Positions 6,554 to 35,817 of a stretch of DNA of 64,000 bases are shown here, in pieces. Below the pieces are notes generated by a model. The model was not told where the DNA came from and did not search any database. It was given only the letters and a program-made list of their open reading frames with translations. Position 1 is the stretch's first letter; each line of letters opens with the position of its first letter. The stretch lies in contig CBDFIJ010000004.1 in assembly GCA_965248055.1 (NCBI GenBank), positions 2,914,925 through 2,978,924 on the forward strand. Reading direction: 5' to 3'. Source of the DNA: Candidatus Multivoradales bacterium (lineage in GTDB: Bacteria > Acidobacteriota > Thermoanaerobaculia > Multivoradales > JAHEKO01). The translations under genes and the position numbers were made by a program.

Positions 6554-7147
6554 CTAATTCTCTTGGGCAATTTGATACCGCAAGGGCCATTTCCTAGCCT
6601 CACCCGCATAGTTCACGCCGACTCTCGGTCCGCGGATAACTTCGCTTTCAGGCACGCGGCGCCCGTGAACTAAGAAAAGCCCACTGCCTTGCAGACTCCG
6701 GGCGTTCGATCGACAATCGATCCCCATGGCTTGACAGAGCTTAGCCGGACCACCAGCCAAGTCCTTGGCATTGACTCCGGGTTTCTGGCCGCGTCGGTGC
6801 TGCATGGTCGCCTCGCCGCCGACAGGAACTCCAGCGCGAATCAGTACTGCGTCGGCGACGCCTTGTTGGCCGCAGACGACGTTGAAGCACCAATGCATGC
6901 CGTAGACGAAGTAGATGTAGGCATGACCGGGTGGGCCGTACATTGGTGCAACGCGCTTTGTGCGACGACCAAAAGCCGCGTGGCTGGCGGGGTCGATGGC
7001 GCCGAGATAGGCCTCGGTCTCGGTGATTTCTAAGATTGAAGTGGAGGCCCCGACGACCCGCACGATCTGGCATCCGAGCAGCGCGCGCGCAACGGTCGGG
7101 CTGGGCCGGTCATAAAAGGCTCGGGGTAGTGATTGATCGAGATGAAT
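6554..7147 (-). CDS. DNA-3-methyladenine glycosylase (MPG/AAG family)
   Basis: 'EAYLG..DPASHA..GRRTKRVAPMYGPPGHAYIYFVYGMHWCFNVV' is the MPG signature; in-frame upstream sequence 'FYDRPSPTVARALLGCQIVRVVG' also matches the MPG N-terminus, so the true start is upstream of the GTG at 7063 (non-canonical/uncertain). Confidence 0.65.
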   Translation of the reverse strand: MHLDQSLPRAFYDRPSPTVARALLGCQIVRVVGASTSILEITETEAYLGAIDPASHAAFGRRTKRVAPMYGPPGHAYIYFVYGMHWCFNVVCGQQGVADAVLIRAGVPVGGEATMQHRRGQKPGVNAKDLAGGPAKLCQAMGIDCRSNARSLQGSGLFLVHGRRVPESEVIRGPRVGVNYAGEARKWPLRYQIAQEN

Positions 7148-8530: not shown

Positions 8531-11500
8531 CTAGGGCTGCGGCGGAGTGAGGCGCAAAGCCGGGTCCCCTGTGAGACTGTAGGTGGCAGCAATATCTGGG
8601 CTCCCGCCACCAGCTATGAAACTCCTTAACCCGCTAAAGACTGCTTCGCCGAGCGTCGCGTTGTCACCGTTCCAGGCTTCGGGAAGCGTGTAAGTTGCCA
8701 GTAGGTGCGACTGGGCGTGGCGCGAAGCTGCAGTTGCACCGAACGCCGCGACCGATCCACCATCGGGATCGAACAATAGGGATTCTGGAAGCGTCTGGAC
8801 GCCCGGCCAGGTGGTGATATTGACTAGGCATCCAAACGCAAAAAGTATTCCCGGTGACTGGGAGTTCGTCAATTCATCCATGTCTGCGGTAGACAGAATT
8901 GATTCTGCTGCCAGCTGTGTGGCGCCTCCGTGGCCGGAATAAACGAGCGCAAGAGTACCATCATTGATCTGGTCGATGAGCTCAGAGTGAATCTCTCCTG
9001 GGTCGCCGGTTCTACCCAGTAGAAGAAGGTTTCGGTTGAAGTCGTTCGGTGCCCGAGCAGATAGATCGAAGGCCGCAGCGTGATAGTCCCCGGCATGATC
9101 TGGGTTGTCGGCAACGAACGCAATATTGTGCTTCCAGTCGGCCGTAGAGGCTTCGAAGACCTTAAGTTTTTCAACATAGTTGGAAACATCTTCTCTAGAG
9201 TTGGCTGGAATCCTACCAATCAAGAATTCGCTTCCGGGGCTCCCGTCTACGTCGCCGAGGACTGAATCCGAGGCGATGACTTGATTGCCGACGTTCATTA
9301 AATTGGCCGGGATCAGATTGCCTCCCCAACCATTGATATCGCGAAAGTCCCAATGCCCGTCGCCCAATAAGACAACCCAACGCGGCGCTTGCCGAGGTCT
9401 CTCCGCCAGCAAGGTCAAGTACTCTTTGATCATCGATGGGTGGTAGTTCCCGTGGCCGATTTGATCAACAATGTCTTGAAAGAACACAGTGCGTGTTCGG
9501 AGCCCTTGAGATTCACGGTAGCTGGCGAGCTCGGCGGCGCCAACTGTGAGAGTTGGGTCGGTGATCAGCAAGTAATCGATTGGTTTTCGACCGAGGCTAT
9601 TGCGTTTGCCGAGAAGGCGCAGACCAGCGACTTGTTTCCATCCGGTGGTATCGACCATCCAGACTTCGGTCTCGGAGGAGAGTTGGTATTTCGCCTGTAC
9701 TGTGCCGTCGAGGCCAGAGGAAAGACCGATGGCCAACGACCGGGGTACTCCATCTTCCCAGGCGTAAGCGGTAACGGCATCGGAGGTCCAGCCCTTTGTC
9801 AACCCCCGGGTTGGCGCGTTCTTCATCTGCAGAAACCCGTGAACTGGTTGCAGCGGCCGTTGATAGGTCAGGTCGAATGAGTCGATGAAGGCGTACCCTT
9901 GTTCAGCTCTAAATTCGATGTTGTTGGTTCCGTCAACCAAGACCCTGGCAGGAACCATCAGCACGGTGTCGAATCTCTCTGATTCATAAGACACCGCGTT
10001 CCCCAGACGATGCCCATTGACTTTGATTTCGAACGAGGTGCCGCCTGTGTTGGCTAAGGGACTGTAAGCCTTCACGGAGAGTCGGGCAGACTTTTCAGCT
10101 ATCACTCCAGGAGTCAAAAAACTCACCGTCGTACGGTCGTCACTGCCACCAGCAATCACGTACTTCCAGTACCAAAAATCATCGGTGGGGGAACTCGCCA
10201 ACCACAGAGTCGCAAAGCTGTCTTTCTCAAATCGCTGATGGTGAGTGTAGGTATCATTTTCTGCAGAAAGAGGTGAATTGCTGGAATCGCGTTCCATGAC
10301 AACGCCAGACTTCCACTCTGCGACCAAGGTCCAGGAGTCGAGGTAGGGTGGCAAAGAATCGCGGACCAAGAAACGAACCGTGCCTTTGGAAGCATCGATG
10401 GGGATGTCGTTTCCGTTGAGTGTTAGCCGAAACTTTCCATTTCGCACCTTTCTCCCGACCGCTTCGCGGGACTCTCCAAGCGCGGTCGCCAGTTCGTCGA
10501 GAGTTAGCTCGTAGGGCCCGGGTCCGGGAACCACGACTCCAATTGGTCTCAGTTGAGGTGTGGGCCTAGGCGGGCGCTCTCGAAGTGGTTGCCTATCCCC
10601 GCCGATTAGCTCGGGCGGTAAGGCGGCCCTCGTTGCGCGCTTAGAGCCAATTTTTTGGCGCGGTGCTCGAAGCCCCCCAGCACGCCCAGGTACTGGCCGA
10701 ACTTGAGTACGCCGAACTGGCTGGTTCAGATCCAATCTACCCAGTTCGCGAATCAGACCATGGGCGTCGACTTCCACAACTCTATATTGGGTGCTTCGGT
10801 GTTTACTTTGATCAAACACCGTGTAGCGGCCACCTTCCGATCCTTTGGCGTTGACGATTCCGGGATGAACGGGGACCCATTTTCCGCCCTGCTGCGCTTG
10901 CACCTTGAACCCCAGACTGCCGATCTCACCAACGGTTTCCCAACTGATCCATTTACCCTCCCGGCTGTCAATTGCGGTGAAATTCACTACCGATGCATAG
11001 TTGGGAACAATATTGAGATCGCAGGCGATAGAGGACTGTGCGGAGGTCACACTCGGGGCGACCAGTGGGAGAGTCGGATAGAAAACGGGTGTTACCGAGA
11101 GGGAGGCGTCGGTTGAATTGACTTGATAATCAAAAGTCATGGTGTCTGTTTCGCTGCTGTCAATGCGACCTGGCACACCGGAGAGGCCGGGCTTCCAACT
11201 CTCGTCGGTGTTGGCGAGGGTTTGATCACCGGCGCTGCCGCCACCATAGGCGACGCCGGTGAATATGCCTGCTACGCTGGCGTCATCGCCGACTTCAAGT
11301 TGCCAGAACTGCCCCGCCCCCACTCCGGTGTTGTTGTAGGTCAACGAGCAAGAGGCTGTTTGTCCCAACACAGAGATCAGGCTGGGTGTACAGGTACACG
11401 AAAGCTGAATATCCGGTACTGAGATGTTGGATTCCACCAATGAACGCTTGCATTTAGAACCATTGAAATCGTCAATGTCTTGTAAGACGTCAGTTCCGTC

Positions 11501-12049
11501 GCAGACGATGGTGTTTTTTGCTTGGCCCCAGGAGGTGATGGTGTCGATATTAACCGTTCCATCTCCATTGCTATCCGAGCAGGGTAGGGTCACTGCAGTT
11601 GGAATTACATAGGTCTCGGATGTTGAAGACGTGACGTTGCCACAAAGGTCACCATCACTGTTTGGATAGTTGGCCGCTGGCCGCAAGTACTCTCGCATGC
11701 AACCGGTCGCCAAAGCGTCGTCGGGGTCAGAAATGGGTATAAATAGACCGATGTCATATCGGATGGAGGCATTAGTTTCTATTTCAGCGCCGAGGCTTAC
11801 TGCGGTGAACGTATCCCCTGGCCCAAAGCACCCATCCAGCAAGGTTGTGGCTTGATAGAAGGCTGCACTGGTGTCGTTGGCAGTGCAATTGAGATCTGGC
11901 GGTGGGCAATTGCAGTCCGGGTCTGCAAAATCCACCAGGGTGTCGCTGTCATTATCAATATTGTCCTGACACGCGAATTCGTCGGCAAGAAGTCGTGGCC
12001 CGACGACAATTACACTCAGCAACGAAACGAACAAGAATATCGATCTCAT
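8531..12049 (-). CDS. 1172-aa secreted protein with C-terminal peptidase C25 (gingipain-like) domain
   Basis: Signal peptide; N-terminal Cys/Asp-rich 'DNDSDTLVDFADPDC' Ca-binding (TSP3-like) repeats; C-terminal 330 aa with 'YLLITD...ELASYRESQG', 'LVYSGHGG' (His) and 'FAFGCL' (Cys) = C25 catalytic dyad. Confidence 0.65.
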   Translation of the reverse strand: MRSIFLFVSLLSVIVVGPRLLADEFACQDNIDNDSDTLVDFADPDCNCPPPDLNCTANDTSAAFYQATTLLDGCFGPGDTFTAVSLGAEIETNASIRYDIGLFIPISDPDDALATGCMREYLRPAANYPNSDGDLCGNVTSSTSETYVIPTAVTLPCSDSNGDGTVNIDTITSWGQAKNTIVCDGTDVLQDIDDFNGSKCKRSLVESNISVPDIQLSCTCTPSLISVLGQTASCSLTYNNTGVGAGQFWQLEVGDDASVAGIFTGVAYGGGSAGDQTLANTDESWKPGLSGVPGRIDSSETDTMTFDYQVNSTDASLSVTPVFYPTLPLVAPSVTSAQSSIACDLNIVPNYASVVNFTAIDSREGKWISWETVGEIGSLGFKVQAQQGGKWVPVHPGIVNAKGSEGGRYTVFDQSKHRSTQYRVVEVDAHGLIRELGRLDLNQPVRRTQVRPVPGRAGGLRAPRQKIGSKRATRAALPPELIGGDRQPLRERPPRPTPQLRPIGVVVPGPGPYELTLDELATALGESREAVGRKVRNGKFRLTLNGNDIPIDASKGTVRFLVRDSLPPYLDSWTLVAEWKSGVVMERDSSNSPLSAENDTYTHHQRFEKDSFATLWLASSPTDDFWYWKYVIAGGSDDRTTVSFLTPGVIAEKSARLSVKAYSPLANTGGTSFEIKVNGHRLGNAVSYESERFDTVLMVPARVLVDGTNNIEFRAEQGYAFIDSFDLTYQRPLQPVHGFLQMKNAPTRGLTKGWTSDAVTAYAWEDGVPRSLAIGLSSGLDGTVQAKYQLSSETEVWMVDTTGWKQVAGLRLLGKRNSLGRKPIDYLLITDPTLTVGAAELASYRESQGLRTRTVFFQDIVDQIGHGNYHPSMIKEYLTLLAERPRQAPRWVVLLGDGHWDFRDINGWGGNLIPANLMNVGNQVIASDSVLGDVDGSPGSEFLIGRIPANSREDVSNYVEKLKVFEASTADWKHNIAFVADNPDHAGDYHAAAFDLSARAPNDFNRNLLLLGRTGDPGEIHSELIDQINDGTLALVYSGHGGATQLAAESILSTADMDELTNSQSPGILFAFGCLVNITTWPGVQTLPESLLFDPDGGSVAAFGATAASRHAQSHLLATYTLPEAWNGDNATLGEAVFSGLRSFIAGGGSPDIAATYSLTGDPALRLTPPQP

Positions 12050-12143
12050 GACTCCCTCCCTTAGTTCCCAAAAAGAAACGAAACAGTAGCGCCAATTACG
12101 CGGTGAACTGAGGCGTCAACCCTATATCAGCTAGGAGGGGCTG

Positions 12144-32334: not shown

Positions 32335-32670
32335 TCAGGCAATCGCAGCGAGGGCGGCGGCGAGGAAGATGCCGTTGAGCCCGAGCAGACTGCCAATCAC
32401 TGCGGCGATGTTGCCGTGGATGGTACCTTCTTTGGCGGTTTTGCCGAGCACCAACAAACTGGCGACGGCAATGGCCAATTGCAACAGCGTCCACAGGCCA
32501 ATGAGAAACGGCGACAAGTCACCGCCTGCGGCCAGTGATGAGGCCGACATTAGCCCCCAAACAGCCAGCGCGGCGCTCAACAATGCGATGGCGATAGCGA
32601 TCCAATCCCAAAACACCGGTTTGGGAATCTCCCAGCCAAGGCGGGGGATGGTGAAGGTGCTCTCGCTCAT
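32335..32670 (-). CDS. small 3-TM membrane protein, unknown function
   Basis: Start taken at internal ATG (MSESTF...); three hydrophobic helices. Confidence 0.35.
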   Translation of the reverse strand: MSESTFTIPRLGWEIPKPVFWDWIAIAIALLSAALAVWGLMSASSLAAGGDLSPFLIGLWTLLQLAIAVASLLVLGKTAKEGTIHGNIAAVIGSLLGLNGIFLAAALAAIA

Positions 32671-32957
32671 GGACGATACTTTCTTGGTAAGGCTTAACGG
32701 ACGGCTTTTCCTCGCAGTCGAGTCTAGCATTCAGGGGGGCAGTGTTGATCAAACTCTCTGTTACACTACAACCATCATTAACCGAGCGCGTGTGGCGGGG
32801 GCTCACGCTCATGGCGAAGAGAGGAGGTCCGCTATGAACTTGGAGCCTAGACCGTGTTAACGCCTCAACCCAATGGCTTGGGGGCTGTAGGAGGAAATCG
32901 TCTGGCGGTTTCAGTTGTCGTTGCTGAGGTGCCGCGCAAAAAACGCAGGAGGTACGC

Positions 32958-33032
32958 ATGGACAACAATTCATCGCGTTGCGTCTGTCCGCGCGGCCACC
33001 CAGATGCTGAAGTGATAAGGAGGTTGTGTTGA
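32958..33032 (+). CDS. 24-aa upstream ORF 'MDNNSSRCVCPRGHPDAEVIRRLC' overlapping start of next gene
   Basis: Strong RBS GCAGGAGG 5 nt upstream of ATG; stop TGA overlaps GTG start of 33026 ORF; below ORF-track size cut-off. Confidence 0.25.
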   Translation: MDNNSSRCVCPRGHPDAEVIRRLC

Positions 33033-33268
33033 GTAAGTATACGGACGGTGTGAAAGAGCGTTGGAATGTCTTGGTCAACGGCAAACTGCCAGTCGGTAGA
33101 ACTGGAGGCAAAGCTACTGGCGGGACCGGTAGCGGAAACGGCGGATCAGGCGGTTTATCGGTAGTGCCGCCGAGTTCCGAATGGGAGCTAATTTACAAGA
33201 GATTTCGTCGGTCTCATGGCAGATACCCATACAGTCATCAGGAAGTTGTTGATTGGTGGGGGTATTAG
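33026..33268 (+). CDS. small protein, paralog 1 (Gly-rich linker + conserved W/K-rich C-terminal box)
   Basis: RBS TAAGGAGG; C-terminus 'EWELIYKRFRRSHGRYPYSHQEVVDWW' ~60% identical to next ORF. Confidence 0.45.
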   Translation: MLSKYTDGVKERWNVLVNGKLPVGRTGGKATGGTGSGNGGSGGLSVVPPSSEWELIYKRFRRSHGRYPYSHQEVVDWWGY

Positions 33269-33308
33269 CTGACGTACAAAGGTTGCACGAATCAAAGGAG
33301 TTACGACG

Positions 33309-33545
33309 ATGGGTTTGTTAAGACAATTTGGTAAAGCGTTGAAGGATCAGCAAAAGGCACTGCGTGAAGGAGATCCGAACTGGATGACACCGTGGTCCCG
33401 CTCACCAGGGAGCTCTGGTACTGGCGGAACTGGCGGATCAAACGAGCCTGGGGACGAGTGGAAACTAATCCACAAAAAATTTCGGCAAGTCATGGGACGC
33501 GAGCCATACAGTAAACAAGAATTAGTGGACTGGTGGAGCTCATAG
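33309..33545 (+). CDS. small protein, paralog 2
   Basis: RBS AAAGGAG; C-terminus 'EWKLIHKKFRQVMGREPYSKQELVDWW'. Confidence 0.45.
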   Translation: MGLLRQFGKALKDQQKALREGDPNWMTPWSRSPGSSGTGGTGGSNEPGDEWKLIHKKFRQVMGREPYSKQELVDWWSS

Positions 33546-33874
33546 CAGTCTTAGGCAGGGTAAAACGCTATTCGGTACCGGCTCAGCTTGAGTCCAGCCA
33601 ACAAATCGAGCCGGCAAAAGGGCACATTGAGCTGGCAAAGGGCGACAACATGCGGCGCCGATGCAGCAAGGGCCAGATCAAGAACGACCCAGCATCGAAA
33701 GGGATGATCGTCATTTGTCGCTGCGAGACGGACAATGTGGTTGTGTGGCGCTGTAGGCGCTGAGGTAGAAGTGGGTCCGAATGAGGTGCAGTTCGAAGCT
33801 CTGAGCGATGTTTCGGGAGACCGTTGGCGTTGGGCAGGCTTTCTGGCGAGTACTGTTATCTAAGAAAACTGTAA

Positions 33875-34190
33875 GAGGTGGTCCCCCTGGGTGCATCCAT
33901 CTCGCCGCAGCAGCAGGACACCCCCACCTACGAGTCCTTCAACATCCTAACCACAGCAGCCAATGAGGCCGTTTCACCGCCACCGCATGCCGGTGATTCT
34001 CAGACCGGAAGCGCAGGGACTATGGCTCGATCCAAGTGTTGAAGACACCGATGCACTGGATGACTTGCTGAAGCTCCGGTTGAACGATGAACTAGTCAGC
34101 TACTCGGTTTCAACCTTTGTCAGATGCGGTGGAATTTTGGGGAACCAGCAAACTGGGTCTGTTCAAGGTGTTGCGTTGCAGCAATCATAA
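33875..34190 (+). pseudogene. frameshifted C-terminal remnant of SOS-response-associated peptidase (SRAP/YedK/HMCES family)
   Basis: Frame 1 'SFNILTTAANEAV' then -1/+1 shift into 'HRHRMPVILRPEAQGLWLD...ELVSYSVS' matching YedK 'GFLIVTAAADQGLVDIHDRRPLVLSPEAAREWM...VS'; N-terminal two-thirds (Cys2 nucleophile) absent. Confidence 0.55.
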
Positions 34191-34320
34191 CGACCACTCC
34201 ATACGACACTAGAGAAACCAATGCAGCGAGCGTCACGGTAACCGCGGCCAGATCGGATCCAATACTGAGGCAGATTTCAAGACATGGCAGGTGTACTGAA
34301 TTCATAAAGTGGAGACCGAG

Positions 34321-35817
34321 CTACTCCGATTTAGTCTCGTCTTCGAGCGGTTGATGCTCCGGTCGCAACAAGTCGAAGATCGACTTCACCGGGGCGAAGG
34401 TCGAAGCTGGGACTTCGACGAATACCGTGTGCCAATAGGCCATCGAGCCGTTCCACAGGCCGGGCCGTTCCAGTGCTCGCACTTTTCGACCAGCAACACT
34501 GCGATCGGTGACGAAAACCGCCGAGGGATCTCGAAAGTCCTCAAGCCTGTAACGCGTTCCGTCGGGGCGACCGATGACGCACGCGAGATCGACCGGATTG
34601 AAGTGGCTGGAGGATCGCCAAATTGCCGCTTGTTGGGGATTGTCCAAGTCCACCTCGGCCGACTCGACGATCTGCGGTCGCACCTCTCGGTTAGGTAGTT
34701 GAACCCAGAAGGGGCCGCCACCTGGCTCGCGTTGGTTGCGCACCATGCCGCATATCCGGAGCGGACGATCCAGCAAAGCCCGCCAGTGCGCGGGATCCAC
34801 CGGGGATTCTGCAAGGCCCAGGTGGCGCAGAAGTTGCTCGATGCTCTGGGCGTCAATGCCTGCCGATCCTGCGTCCAGTTCTCGCAGAGTGTTGGAAATG
34901 CGTCTTGAGAAGTCCAATGCCAGGCCACCAAGAATCTTTTTCCAGTGGGCGATCTGGGGATGGATGGCTGCGGGCTGGATGTTGTCGATATTGCGGACAA
35001 ATAGATGGTCGCTACGGCTTGCTGCCAAGTTTGTCAGTAGAGATCCGTGTCCACCCGGGCGCAGAACCGGCAGCCCGTCTCGATTCCGAACCACGGTGCC
35101 TGCTTCCGGGTCGTAGGCCAAGGTGCGCGACGCTGCACTCTGCTCGGTGAGCTCGACGTTGCAGGAGCCCGGGGATTGCTCGGCCAGTGTCGACTCGAAT
35201 AGGGCTCGATGTTCGGGTGAGACGGTGAGAGTCAGCCGCGGCTCGCCAAGACCGTAGTGAAGAGCCTCTGCAATATGTTCTTCTAAGGGAGTCCGTGACC
35301 CCTCGGGGTAACGATGGAACGGAATTAAGGCTTTGGGGAGGGCGCCGAAATTCAAACCTGAAGCCTGGGGCAAAGCGGAACCCTTAGCAGGAGTATCAGC
35401 GGGAACGCCCACCAGAGCTTGAGCCAAGAGTTCCGGACTCCGGCTGCCGTTGGTCGCATCGAGCAGCTCGTTAGCAAAGGGAAAACGGTCCAGGTTGGAG
35501 GCTAGATTCTGCAGTGCCTCTGCGTCTTGCACTGCCATTTGGTGGAACATTCTGGAAGCTGCGCCAGAAGCAGGAATCCATTTTTCGAAGCGAGCAGGAC
35601 CGTTGTGTTTTTGCCAGAAGTCCAATGCATGGTGGACTTGTGTGGTGTCGAGTTGCAGGATGCCTGTGCCGACGGTGCACGCCGAGTGCAGTTGCCGTGG
35701 CGGCGGCGGGTCGACCAGGAAAACTAGCTGTTGGTTTGCGGAGTCTTTATCGATCCCCTGCGCAGCAAGGAATTCAAGATCTTGGGCGGTTAACAAAGAC
35801 ATGACGTGGAGAAGCAC
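34321..35817 (-). CDS. DUF4301-like protein (possible UDPGP-like nucleotidyltransferase)
   Basis: N-terminal 'LTAQDLEFLAAQGI', 'KWIPASGAASRMF' and 'LRPGGHGSL' resemble DUF4301 family conserved blocks; family assignment from memory only. Confidence 0.45.
   Translation of the reverse strand: MLLHVMSLLTAQDLEFLAAQGIDKDSANQQLVFLVDPPPPRQLHSACTVGTGILQLDTTQVHHALDFWQKHNGPARFEKWIPASGAASRMFHQMAVQDAEALQNLASNLDRFPFANELLDATNGSRSPELLAQALVGVPADTPAKGSALPQASGLNFGALPKALIPFHRYPEGSRTPLEEHIAEALHYGLGEPRLTLTVSPEHRALFESTLAEQSPGSCNVELTEQSAASRTLAYDPEAGTVVRNRDGLPVLRPGGHGSLLTNLAASRSDHLFVRNIDNIQPAAIHPQIAHWKKILGGLALDFSRRISNTLRELDAGSAGIDAQSIEQLLRHLGLAESPVDPAHWRALLDRPLRICGMVRNQREPGGGPFWVQLPNREVRPQIVESAEVDLDNPQQAAIWRSSSHFNPVDLACVIGRPDGTRYRLEDFRDPSAVFVTDRSVAGRKVRALERPGLWNGSMAYWHTVFVEVPASTFAPVKSIFDLLRPEHQPLEDETKSE

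What the first reader, a model, noticed from the sequence alone, without database searches (positions are those of the whole stretch)
32731..34320. Low-GC islet: Cys-containing 24-aa uORF coupled to two tandem paralogous ~80-aa proteins of unknown family
GC drops here relative to the flanks. A 24-aa ORF, MDNNSSRCVCPRGHPDAEVIRRLC, has a strong RBS and its stop overlaps the GTG start of the first ~80-aa gene. The two ~80-aa proteins share a variable N-terminal region, a Gly-rich linker (GGKATGGTGSGNGGSGG / GSSGTGGTGGS) and a near-identical C-terminal box, EW(E/K)LI(Y/H)K(R/K)FR...GR(Y/E)PYS(H/K)QE(V/L)VDWW. I cannot place the pair in any known family. The Gly-rich region plus conserved aromatic tail, tandem duplication, strong RBSs and position beside a decayed SRAP gene suggest a horizontally acquired cassette. 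It could be a toxin/immunity, stress or phage-derived pair.
Basis: seen in the sequence. Interest (0 to 1): 0.6.

Follow-up and report, generated by a model that had tools for sequence, protein, structure and literature searches.

The report
Unannotated phage-linked small protein pair
Two adjacent ~80-residue genes are real, selected members of a rare small-protein family that no database describes, is scattered across bacterial phyla and some phages, and has no known function; the 24-codon upstream ORF has no comparative support.

Summary
Gene A (33029-33268, probable TTG start) and gene B (33309-33545) are paralogues sharing a C-terminal box (19/31 identical, E 4e-14). They sit in a modest low-GC patch (53.5% against 58.0%; GC3 0.50 against 0.66) beside a truncated, frameshifted SRAP remnant.

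They belong to a rare family: 57 clusters among 5.8 billion proteins, nearly all 53-92 aa. It has no significant match in Pfam, NCBIfam, PHROGs, PADLOC or PDB. The architecture is an N-terminal amphipathic helix, a variable Gly/Ser/Thr- or Pro-rich disordered linker, and an invariant helix-loop-helix, (E)W..IY.KFR...GR.PYS.QEL.DWW.

The same A-then-B pair occurs in a Thermoanaerobaculia MAG next to tRNA-Pro. There dN/dS is about 0.2 and synonymous sites are saturated. A third tandem pair is in another contig. Three members lie in early replication/recombination regions of phage contigs. The others are solitary chromosomal genes with no conserved neighbour.

The 24-aa uORF is not conserved in any of ten related loci, and the leader shows no structure or Rfam match. 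A toxin/antitoxin reading is rejected.

My best reading is a horizontally acquired, mobile-DNA-associated small helical binding protein pair, possibly heterodimeric, with an unknown target. Interest is moderate.

The parts
33029..33268 (+). Gene A, 79 aa from TTG 33029 (80 aa if GTG 33026). It is an A-type member of the family: N-terminal helix, Gly-rich linker, C-terminal WW box.
   Evidence: ORF. The orthologue in L001 (10001-10231) has dN/dS 0.22. AF2 gives helices 3-16, 48-63 and 70-78, with 19-47 disordered.
33309..33545 (+). Gene B, 78 aa, a paralogue of A (B-type).
   Evidence: ORF. An identical protein, P0001, is on a 3.35 Mb NCBI/ENA contig. Against the orthologue L001:10285-10512, dN is 0.28 with synonymous sites saturated. 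It clusters with P0003, P0041 and P0057.
33179..33259 (+). C-terminal box of A (E51-W77): EWELIYKRFRRSHGRYPYSHQEVVDWW, a predicted helix-loop-helix.
   Evidence: It contains the family-invariant residues F59, R65, P67, Y68, S69, E72, D75, W76 and W77. pLDDT is 75-82.
33456..33536 (+). C-terminal box of B (E50-W76): EWKLIHKKFRQVMGREPYSKQELVDWW.
   Evidence: In the last 30 codons against the L001 orthologue, pN is 0.09 and pS 0.985.
33017..33023 (+). Shine-Dalgarno AAGGAGG of gene A. It lies inside the uORF.
   Evidence: Read from the sequence. Strong SDs directly before the start codon are general in the family.
33295..33300 (+). Shine-Dalgarno AAGGAG of gene B, 8 nt before the ATG. The A-B spacer is only 40 nt, so the two are probably co-transcribed.
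   Evidence: Read from the sequence. The co-transcription is an inference.
32958..33032 (+). 24-codon uORF (MDNNSSRCVCPRGHPDAEVIRRLC) with its own GGAGG. Its stop overlaps the start of A (TTGA). The function is unsupported.
   Evidence: Present. Not conserved in L001 or nine other loci. No structure or Rfam signal.
33942..34121 (+). C-terminal remnant of an SRAP (YedK-like) gene. It is a pseudogene and probably unrelated to the pair.
   Evidence: Pfam PF02586 at 5.8e-08, profile positions 153-211 of 214. The preceding motif, SFNILTTAANEAVSP, is in another frame. There is no SRAP at the other family loci.

Best explanation
What is shown. A and B are two genuine, co-oriented protein-coding genes under purifying selection. 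They are ancient paralogues belonging to a rare, undescribed family of stand-alone 55-90-aa proteins. The family is scattered across unrelated bacteria and also occurs in the early replication/recombination regions of tailed-phage contigs. In this genome, and in the only other genome with the same A-B pair, the genes have clearly lower GC and GC3 than the host.

What I infer about origin. The pair arrived by horizontal transfer, most likely from phage or other mobile DNA, and is kept as an accessory gene pair.

What I infer about mechanism. Each protein is a soluble three-helix module. A basic amphipathic N-terminal helix is tethered by a flexible spacer of free length to an invariant Trp-rich helix-loop-helix (W..IY.KFR...GR.PYS.QEL.DWW). 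It acts by binding a partner macromolecule, not by catalysis. The A-type lineage has only been seen as the first gene of a tandem pair, so A probably works as a heteromer with the downstream paralogue. The target is unknown.

The uORF is most likely a chance ORF in the leader.
For: Real genes.
- The A/B box matches at E 4e-14.
- The orthologous pair in L001 keeps the same order.
- dN/dS is 0.22 for A. For B, dN is 0.28 with dS saturated. A against B is also saturated.

Family.
- 16 hits among 1.84 billion representative proteins.
- 57 clusters among 5.8 billion proteins.
- Nine invariant residues across 54 sequences.

No known family. all gave nothing significant.

Structure.
- AF2 gives three helices and a disordered linker.
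- The C-terminal hairpin has pLDDT 75-86.
- All helices are amphipathic.

Phage members.
- L010 lies between primase/polymerase and TerS/TerL/portal.
- L011 lies after a RecE-like exonuclease and RusA.
- L015 lies after AAA_24, Phg_2220_C, an IstB-like gene and SSB.

Horizontal origin.
- Composition in the window is atypical.
- The L001 islet is 50.4% GC against 60.6% and abuts tRNA-Pro.
- Other members sit among HipBA/ParDE, TIR or pseudogene fragments.

Tandem pairs. Window, L001 and L018 each carry an A-type gene first.
Against: - No partner, phenotype or expression data exist.
- Most chromosomal members are not in recognisable prophages.
- No member was found in isolated phages or plasmids.
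- In several other loci the gene's GC equals that of its surroundings, so low GC is not a family trait.
- No mobile-element boundaries are visible in the window.
- The heteromer idea rests on three loci.
- N-terminal helix confidence is only pLDDT about 60-67.
Confidence: 0.5

Rival explanations
1. Peripheral membrane protein. The N-terminal basic, aromatic amphipathic helix (MG-YW..VK.RW..MV in the family, MGLLRQFGKALK in B) would anchor the protein on the inner membrane. The C-terminal WW hairpin would recruit or regulate a membrane partner.
For: - Helix 1 has a hydrophobic moment of 0.34-0.70 and net positive charge.
- Small membrane or secreted proteins are encoded immediately downstream in L005, L010, L011 and L015.
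- The window neighbours are membrane proteins: a 131-aa TM protein, DedA/VTT and UppP.
- From my own knowledge, the N-termini resemble the membrane-binding helices of PspA/Vipp1 and MinE. This was not tested.
Against: - The moments are moderate and equally compatible with helix packing in a bundle.
- No transmembrane segment or signal peptide is present.
- The neighbouring membrane proteins are not homologous to each other.
Confidence: 0.15
2. Small DNA-binding regulator with a Myb/SANT- or HTH-like three-helix fold built around conserved tryptophans, as in phage early regulators.
For: - Three helices with conserved Trp in each.
- Sub-threshold Pfam hits to HTH_48 (best 0.011) and Myb_DNA-bind_5 (best 0.029), in three members each.
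- Early-region position in the phage contigs.
Against: - The hits are far from significant.
- The would-be recognition helix (QELVDWW) is acidic and hydrophobic.
- The loop is 6 residues, longer than a classical HTH turn.
- The Trp spacing differs from Myb.
- No specific structural match was found.
- No conserved operator-like sequence lies upstream.
Confidence: 0.12
3. The C-terminal box is a distant, minimal relative of the helix-loop-helix found inside phycobilisome-linker (PF00427) and DUF4214-type domains. It would serve as a generic protein-docking module.
For: - GR(E/D)PYS.QE...W is in the same register as in CpcG/ApcE-type linkers.
- Supporting scores: HMMER E 3.9e-06 and 1.4e-04 to multi-linker proteins; PDB CpcG 8iml at E 1.2; Pfam 0.05-0.07; hhalign probability 57% with pairwise E 1e-4 over 30 columns.
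Against: - It covers only 30 of about 130 domain positions.
- It is below every curated threshold.
- No DUF4214 hit appears in any of the 54 members.
- The hosts are not cyanobacteria.
- A short helix-GRxP-helix motif could be convergent. A similar motif occurs in pseudomurein-binding repeats.
Confidence: 0.15
4. The 24-aa Cys-containing uORF is a functional leader peptide. Its translation would deliver ribosomes to A by termination-reinitiation at the TTGA overlap.
For: - Good SD and spacing. The stop overlaps the start of A, and the SD of A lies inside the uORF.
- Five GGAGG motifs lie on the + strand within 286 nt, the densest cluster in the window (P about 0.05).
Against: - No counterpart in the orthologous L001 locus or in nine other loci.
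- A has its own strong SD, unpaired in the predicted fold. The leader z-score is +0.61.
- No Rfam hit.
- A 24-codon ORF after a chance SD-start is not improbable: about 0.09 per GGAGG by my own estimate.
Confidence: 0.1
5. Toxin-antitoxin or toxin-immunity pair.
For: Two small adjacent co-oriented genes in an atypical-GC patch. One relative lies between HipBA and ParDE.
Against: - A and B are paralogues with the same architecture.
- 11 of 14 loci have a single gene.
- No PADLOC or Pfam toxin or antitoxin domain.
- No secretion signal.
Confidence: 0.03

Closest known systems
Phycobilisome linker domain (Pfam PF00427; CpcG/ApcE) and the related DUF4214 helical module
   Same: A local helix-loop-helix motif...F(R/L)..GR(E/D)PYS.QE...W, in the same register. 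The hits are weak but recurrent.
   Different: Only about 30 of about 130 positions match, below all thresholds. These are stand-alone 55-90-aa proteins in non-cyanobacteria and phages. The N-terminal helix and disordered linker have no counterpart.
Small ORFan or 'moron'-type accessory genes of phage early (nin-like) regions
   Same: Small size and strong SD. Position between the replication/recombination genes and the packaging genes in three phage contigs. Sporadic chromosomal copies in variable regions.
   Different: That is a positional category, not a family. Most members here are chromosomal and not in recognisable prophages, and none is in sequenced isolate phages.
WXG100 (EsxA/EsxB) pairs
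   Same: Tandem paralogous genes for small, mostly helical hairpin proteins that act as heterodimers. This is an analogy for the inferred A-B heteromer only.
   Different: No Pfam WXG100 hit and no W-x-G turn. There is a long disordered insert, no type VII secretion genes, and the phyla differ (knowledge of the WXG100 family).
Pseudomurein-binding repeat of PeiW/PeiP endoisopeptidases
   Same: The Y..F(K/R)...GR(E/D)P motif at the end of a helix (8z4f_B, E 1.5).
   Different: The match is not significant. Those are repeats inside secreted archaeal-virus enzymes, whereas this family has no signal peptide and no repeats.

Membership tests
Phycobilisome linker polypeptide (PF00427) | Match to the ~126-position domain above the Pfam gathering score | tested here: not met
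   Best score is 13.6 bits against a cut-off of 28.7, covering profile positions 66-91 only. Only 3 of 54 members reach E <= 1.
Phycobilisome linker polypeptide (PF00427) | Profile-profile homology over the domain | tested here: inconclusive
   hhalign against four linker-domain copies gives probability 57% over 30 columns. The template alignment was shallow.
DUF4214 | Pfam match | tested here: not met
   No hit at E <= 1 in any of the 54 members.
Type II toxin-antitoxin pair | Two different proteins (a toxin and a cognate antitoxin) that always occur together | tested here: not met
   A and B are paralogues. Most relatives are solitary. No PADLOC or Pfam toxin or antitoxin domains.
Integron gene cassette | attC site (RYYYAAC ... 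GTTRRRY, structured) at the 3' end of the gene | tested here: not met
   A simple custom pattern-plus-fold scan of 11 loci found none next to a family gene.
Genomic island or prophage insertion | Integrase, tRNA target and flanking direct repeats | tested here: not met
   The window has no tRNA within 17 kb and no flanking repeats. No integrase-sized ORF lies within the 1.6-kb patch, whose neighbours are DedA/VTT, a TM protein and DUF4301; the wider window was not screened for integrases. L001 has an adjacent tRNA-Pro but no repeat and no integrase within the 0.9-kb islet itself.
WXG100 | Pfam PF06013 match and a central W-x-G turn | tested here: not met
   No hit. The turn is GR.PYS.
Myb/SANT or HTH DNA-binding domain | Significant profile match, or a structural match to a three-helix HTH | tested here: not met
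SRAP / YedK (the neighbouring remnant only) | Full-length domain with the N-terminal catalytic Cys2 | tested here: not met
   Only profile positions 153-211 of 214 are detectable, at 33 bits, and there is a frameshift. It is therefore a pseudogene.
Regulatory leader peptide or uORF | Conservation of the ORF or of an associated RNA structure in orthologous leaders | tested here: not met
   Absent in L001 and nine other loci. Fold z-score is +0.61. No Rfam hit.

The most novel reading that the evidence does not exclude
The family would be a new class of mobile, phage-disseminated small effector. Its invariant Trp-rich hairpin would dock onto a host component conserved across phyla, such as part of the replication, transcription, translation or envelope machinery. 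The tethered N-terminal helix would provide a second contact. The A-type lineage would have evolved an obligate heterodimer with a second paralogue. This would be a previously unrecognised host-takeover or anti-defence module, later domesticated by bacteria.
Probability: 0.2. Interest if true: 0.65.

Novelty: categorically new. Interest (0 to 1): 0.42.

Why it matters
Small proteins under 100 residues are the least annotated part of bacterial and phage genomes. This one has an unusually sharp signature. Nine residues are invariant across members from Acidobacteriota, Desulfobulbia, Alphaproteobacteria and phage contigs. It is absent from Pfam, NCBIfam, PHROGs, PADLOC and PDB. It recurs as divergent tandem pairs.

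That degree of conservation in a 30-residue hairpin implies a specific, widely conserved binding partner. Finding the partner could reveal a new phage-host interface or a new small regulatory module.

On present evidence, however, it remains a well-defined 'conserved hypothetical' family and not a demonstrated system, so its importance is potential only.

Tried and rejected
- Family libraries: Pfam, NCBIfam, PHROGs and PADLOC on A and B, and Pfam and NCBIfam also on 54 family members, gave nothing significant. The one PHROG 'minor tail' hit to B (E 6e-4) lies in the low-complexity linker (residues 16-46) and was disregarded.
- Isolate phages and plasmids: tblastn gave no match.
- Literature: a motif search found no relevant paper.
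- Source genome: exact look-ups of A, B and two neighbours found no encoding contig. Ten window proteins are all singleton clusters without names, so the organism could not be named and no syntenic relative could be fetched.
- Integron cassette idea: no attC sites.
- Island boundaries: no repeats.
- Conserved 5' UTR or riboswitch: no conservation beyond the SD, no Rfam hit, and an unremarkable fold.
- Sigma-70 promoter and terminator scan: nothing on the + strand near the pair that exceeds shuffled controls.
- Link to adenylate-forming enzymes: an ANL-superfamily gene (AMP-binding or LuxE-type) is directly adjacent in L001, L009 and L017. The AMP-binding enzymes are only 24-26% identical to one another and belong to different subfamilies, so I treat this as coincidence.
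- RiPP precursor, double-glycine bacteriocin, encapsulation peptide, KGG stress repeat and MbtH-like protein were considered from memory. All were dropped, because no associated genes or motifs were present and Pfam did not support any of them.
Full report
**1. Observation**

Reading 32400-34700 and listing ORFs confirms the three ORFs.
- The uORF is at 32958-33032. It encodes MDNNSSRCVCPRGHPDAEVIRRLC, and a GGAGG ends 5 nt before the ATG.
- Gene A was listed as 33026-33268 (GTG, 80 aa).
- Gene B is at 33309-33545 (ATG, 78 aa), with AAGGAG 8 nt upstream.

The SD of A (AAGGAGG, 33017-23) is 2 nt from the GTG but 5 nt from the TTG at 33029. With the TTG start, A aligns residue for residue with its orthologue. 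I therefore take 33029 as the start. The uORF stop (TGA, 33030-32) then overlaps it as TTGA.

BLASTP of A against B gives 19/31 identities over the C-terminal box, E 4e-14. The paralogy is real.

The GC dip is real but modest.
- 32731-34320 is 53.5% GC against 58.0 +/- 2.0% (2.3rd percentile).
- A+B are 50.9% GC (0.6th percentile).
- GC3 is 0.50/0.51 against 0.664 +/- 0.043 in 40 reference ORFs, none of which is below 0.544.
- Tetranucleotide distance gives z = 2.2.
- A similar dip lies at 11.3-12.0 kb.

The SRAP remnant is confirmed. It matches PF02586 at 33 bits over profile positions 153-211 of 214, with a frameshift just upstream.

The rest of the window is ordinary chromosome: FtsH, CTP synthase, SerA, RecD2, HtrA and others.

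**2. What the genes are**

Neither protein matches Pfam, NCBIfam, PHROGs or PADLOC. A word-indexed search of 5.8 billion proteins found nothing for A. For B it found only the identical protein, on a 3.35 Mb NCBI/ENA contig.

A full HMMER scan of 1.84 billion representatives with the A/B profile found 16 hits. Most are 62-81-aa proteins with the same box. A search with a 17-sequence profile found 57 clusters. Nearly all are 53-92 aa, and the few longer calls (118-124 aa) carry N-terminal extensions that look like mis-called starts. All lack Pfam domains and are either unnamed or labelled only 'hypothetical protein' by their sources.

The family architecture is:
- an N-terminal helix, M(G/S)xYW(D/E)GVKxRWxxMV, or variants such as MGxFWxxFK;
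- a spacer of about 10-45 residues that is Gly/Ser/Thr-rich, Pro-rich or acidic depending on the clade;
- an invariant box, (K)EWELVYQKFRQIEGRDPYSFQELVDWWNRA.

F, R, P, Y, S, E, D, W and W are invariant in 54 sequences.

AlphaFold2 with the family alignment predicts the following.
- For A: helix 3-16, a disordered 19-47, and a helix-loop-helix at 48-63/70-78.
- For the short-linker member P0040 the topology is the same, with pLDDT 84-86 in the hairpin and pTM 0.48.

**3. Comparative evidence that both genes are functional**

A scan of GTDB species representatives found one locus, L001 (a Ca. Multivoradales MAG; Thermoanaerobaculia, Acidobacteriota). It carries the same two genes in the same order, directly after tRNA-Pro(CGG) and before an acyl-CoA ligase gene.

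Nei-Gojobori estimates:
- A against A': dN 0.35, dS 1.58, ratio 0.22.
- B against B': dN 0.28, with synonymous sites saturated.
- In the last 30 codons, pN is 0.09-0.16 and pS is 0.69-0.99.
- A against B is also saturated.

The duplication is therefore old, and both copies are under purifying selection at the protein level. There is no sign of an RNA-level constraint.

The L001 islet is likewise GC-poor: 50.4% against 60.6%.

**4. Distribution and context**

Fourteen distinct family loci were examined, counting the window.

Phage contigs (three loci):
- L010 (IMG/VR). The gene lies between a primase/polymerase and TerS/TerL/portal.
- L011 (IMG/VR). It follows a RecE-like exonuclease and RusA.
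- L015/L016 (JGI). It follows AAA_24, Phg_2220_C, an IstB-like gene and SSB, among many small genes, with a small terminase further on.

Chromosomal loci:
- The rest are chromosomal genes (eight of them solitary) with no shared neighbour: L005, L006 (Ca. Electrothrix), L009 (Ahrensia), L012, L013 and L017.
- L003 lies between HipBA and ParDE.
- L002 lies beside a TIR-domain protein and a nuclease.
- L006 lies among gene fragments.
- Neighbours of the chromosomal copies are not recognisably phage-derived.
- Isolated phages and plasmids have no homologue.

Many chromosomal members carry an extended SD, GAGGTGAT(C), right before the ATG.

A third tandem pair is in L018 (6604-6825 plus 6886-7098). 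In a neighbour-joining tree, A and A' group with the first gene of the L018 pair, with P0006 and with P0052. B and B' group with the solitary P0003, P0041 and P0057. Every A-type gene whose context is known is therefore the first gene of a two-paralogue pair (n = 3).

**5. The uORF**

The orthologous leader in L001 has no counterpart. None of ten related loci has a comparable upstream ORF or any conserved leader sequence beyond the SD.

The leader folds no better than shuffled sequence (z = +0.61), and the SD of A is unpaired. There is no Rfam match.

The one oddity is a cluster of five GGAGG motifs on the + strand within 286 nt (32823-33108). It is the densest in the window, with P about 0.05 under random placement. 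I regard the uORF as unsupported but not excluded.

**6. Comparison with known families**

The only recurrent similarity is local. GR(E/D)PYS.QE...W lies in the same register as in phycobilisome linker domains.
- HMMER E-values of 4e-06 and 1e-04 to multi-linker proteins.
- CpcG in the PDB at E 1.2.
- Pfam E-values of 0.05-0.07.
- hhalign probability 57% over 30 columns.

This falls short of membership and could be convergence on a helix-GRxP-helix motif. A similar motif occurs in pseudomurein-binding repeats. No DUF4214, WXG100, Myb or HTH membership is supported.

Toxin-antitoxin, integron cassette (no attC) and a classical island (no repeats or tRNA) are not supported.

**7. Mechanism**

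Shown:
- two selected paralogous genes;
- a rare stand-alone family with phage members;
- atypical composition in both genomes that carry the A-B pair;
- a three-helix-plus-spacer architecture with an invariant hairpin.

Inferred:
- horizontal acquisition from mobile or phage DNA;
- action by binding, not catalysis, given the small size, the absence of a cofactor or catalytic motif, and an invariant surface-loop motif;
- the freely variable spacer acting as a tether between two binding elements;
- A-type proteins working as heteromers with the adjacent paralogue.

The target is unknown. Rival readings are a peripheral membrane protein, a small DNA binder and a linker-like docking module. Each has a little support and none is decisive.

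**8. Verdict**

Its 'unknown family, horizontally acquired, possibly phage-derived' reading is largely borne out. The toxin/immunity idea and the functional uORF are not.

The family is new in the sense that no curated resource or solved structure covers it. With no functional handle, interest is moderate (0.42).

Noticed in passing
window 32823-33108 (+): Five GGAGG motifs lie on the + strand within 286 nt (32823, 32890, 32948, 33019, 33104). This is the densest cluster in the window, with P about 0.05 under random placement. The first is followed by an 8-codon ORF (ATG 32834, MNLEPRPC) which, like the 24-aa uORF, ends in Cys.
   Followed up: partly
L018 6604-6825 and 6886-7098: A third tandem pair of divergent family paralogues, here with Pro-rich rather than Gly-rich linkers. 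P0052 and P0009 are the same two types and both report a longest contig of 1063 bp, so they may be a fourth pair. That was not verified.
   Followed up: partly
L001 9572-9648: The orthologous A-B pair sits directly downstream of tRNA-Pro(CGG) in a 0.9-kb GC-poor islet (50.4% against 60.6%). No integrase or direct repeat of the tRNA end is present.
   Followed up: yes
L001 10579-12528; L009 6170-7795 (-); L017 4898-7392: An adenylate-forming enzyme gene (AMP-binding in L001 and L009, LuxE-type in L017, where the AMP-binding gene lies one gene further) is directly adjacent to the family gene in 3 of 14 loci. The AMP-binding enzymes are only 24-26% identical to one another and belong to different subfamilies. 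This is probably coincidence.
   Followed up: partly
L002, L003, L005, L006, L012, L013, just upstream of the family gene: Chromosomal members share an extended Shine-Dalgarno, GAGGTG(A/C)T(C), abutting the ATG. It is complementary to more of the 16S 3' end than usual, which suggests strong translation.
   Followed up: partly
L005 8363-8629; L010 7537-7965; L011 2633-2872; L015 8247-8411: The gene immediately downstream of the family gene encodes a small membrane or signal-peptide protein in four loci, including all three phage loci. These proteins are not obviously related to each other.
   Followed up: no
window 33942-34121 and 33905-33965: The SRAP remnant keeps only the last third of the domain. 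The preceding motif (SFNILTTAANEAVSP) is in another frame. 33546-33900 matches nothing.
   Followed up: yes
window 33888-33873 (-): A terminator-like hairpin with a T-run lies on the minus strand, about 430 nt downstream of the DUF4301 gene stop and running through the SRAP remnant region.
   Followed up: no
window 11300-12050: A second GC-poor stretch (about 50%) covers the 5' (N-terminal) part of a 1172-aa ORF. The C-terminal part of that ORF is a Peptidase_C25 (gingipain-like) domain.
   Followed up: partly
whole window: All ten window proteins looked up are singleton clusters at 90% identity. They are unnamed and come from one 3,345,972-bp NCBI/ENA contig. The genome was also not hit in the GTDB representative scan. 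It appears to be a lone representative of its lineage, and the organism could not be named.
   Followed up: partly
P0007 (950 aa): This is a long repetitive protein with about nine copies of ...SLPEAAWKVIHDRFRTDSAPC.... It matched the helix-2 part of the profile (E 3e-08). The score is probably inflated by the repeats, and the protein is unrelated in architecture.
   Followed up: no
L003 7513-9036 and 10448-10968; L002 1358-2895: Metagenomic relatives lie between HipA/HipB and ParD/ParE-like genes (L003), and next to a TIR-domain protein and a thermonuclease-like gene (L002). These assignments were read from the translated sequences, not from a profile search. Both are variable, defence/TA-rich neighbourhoods.
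   Followed up: no
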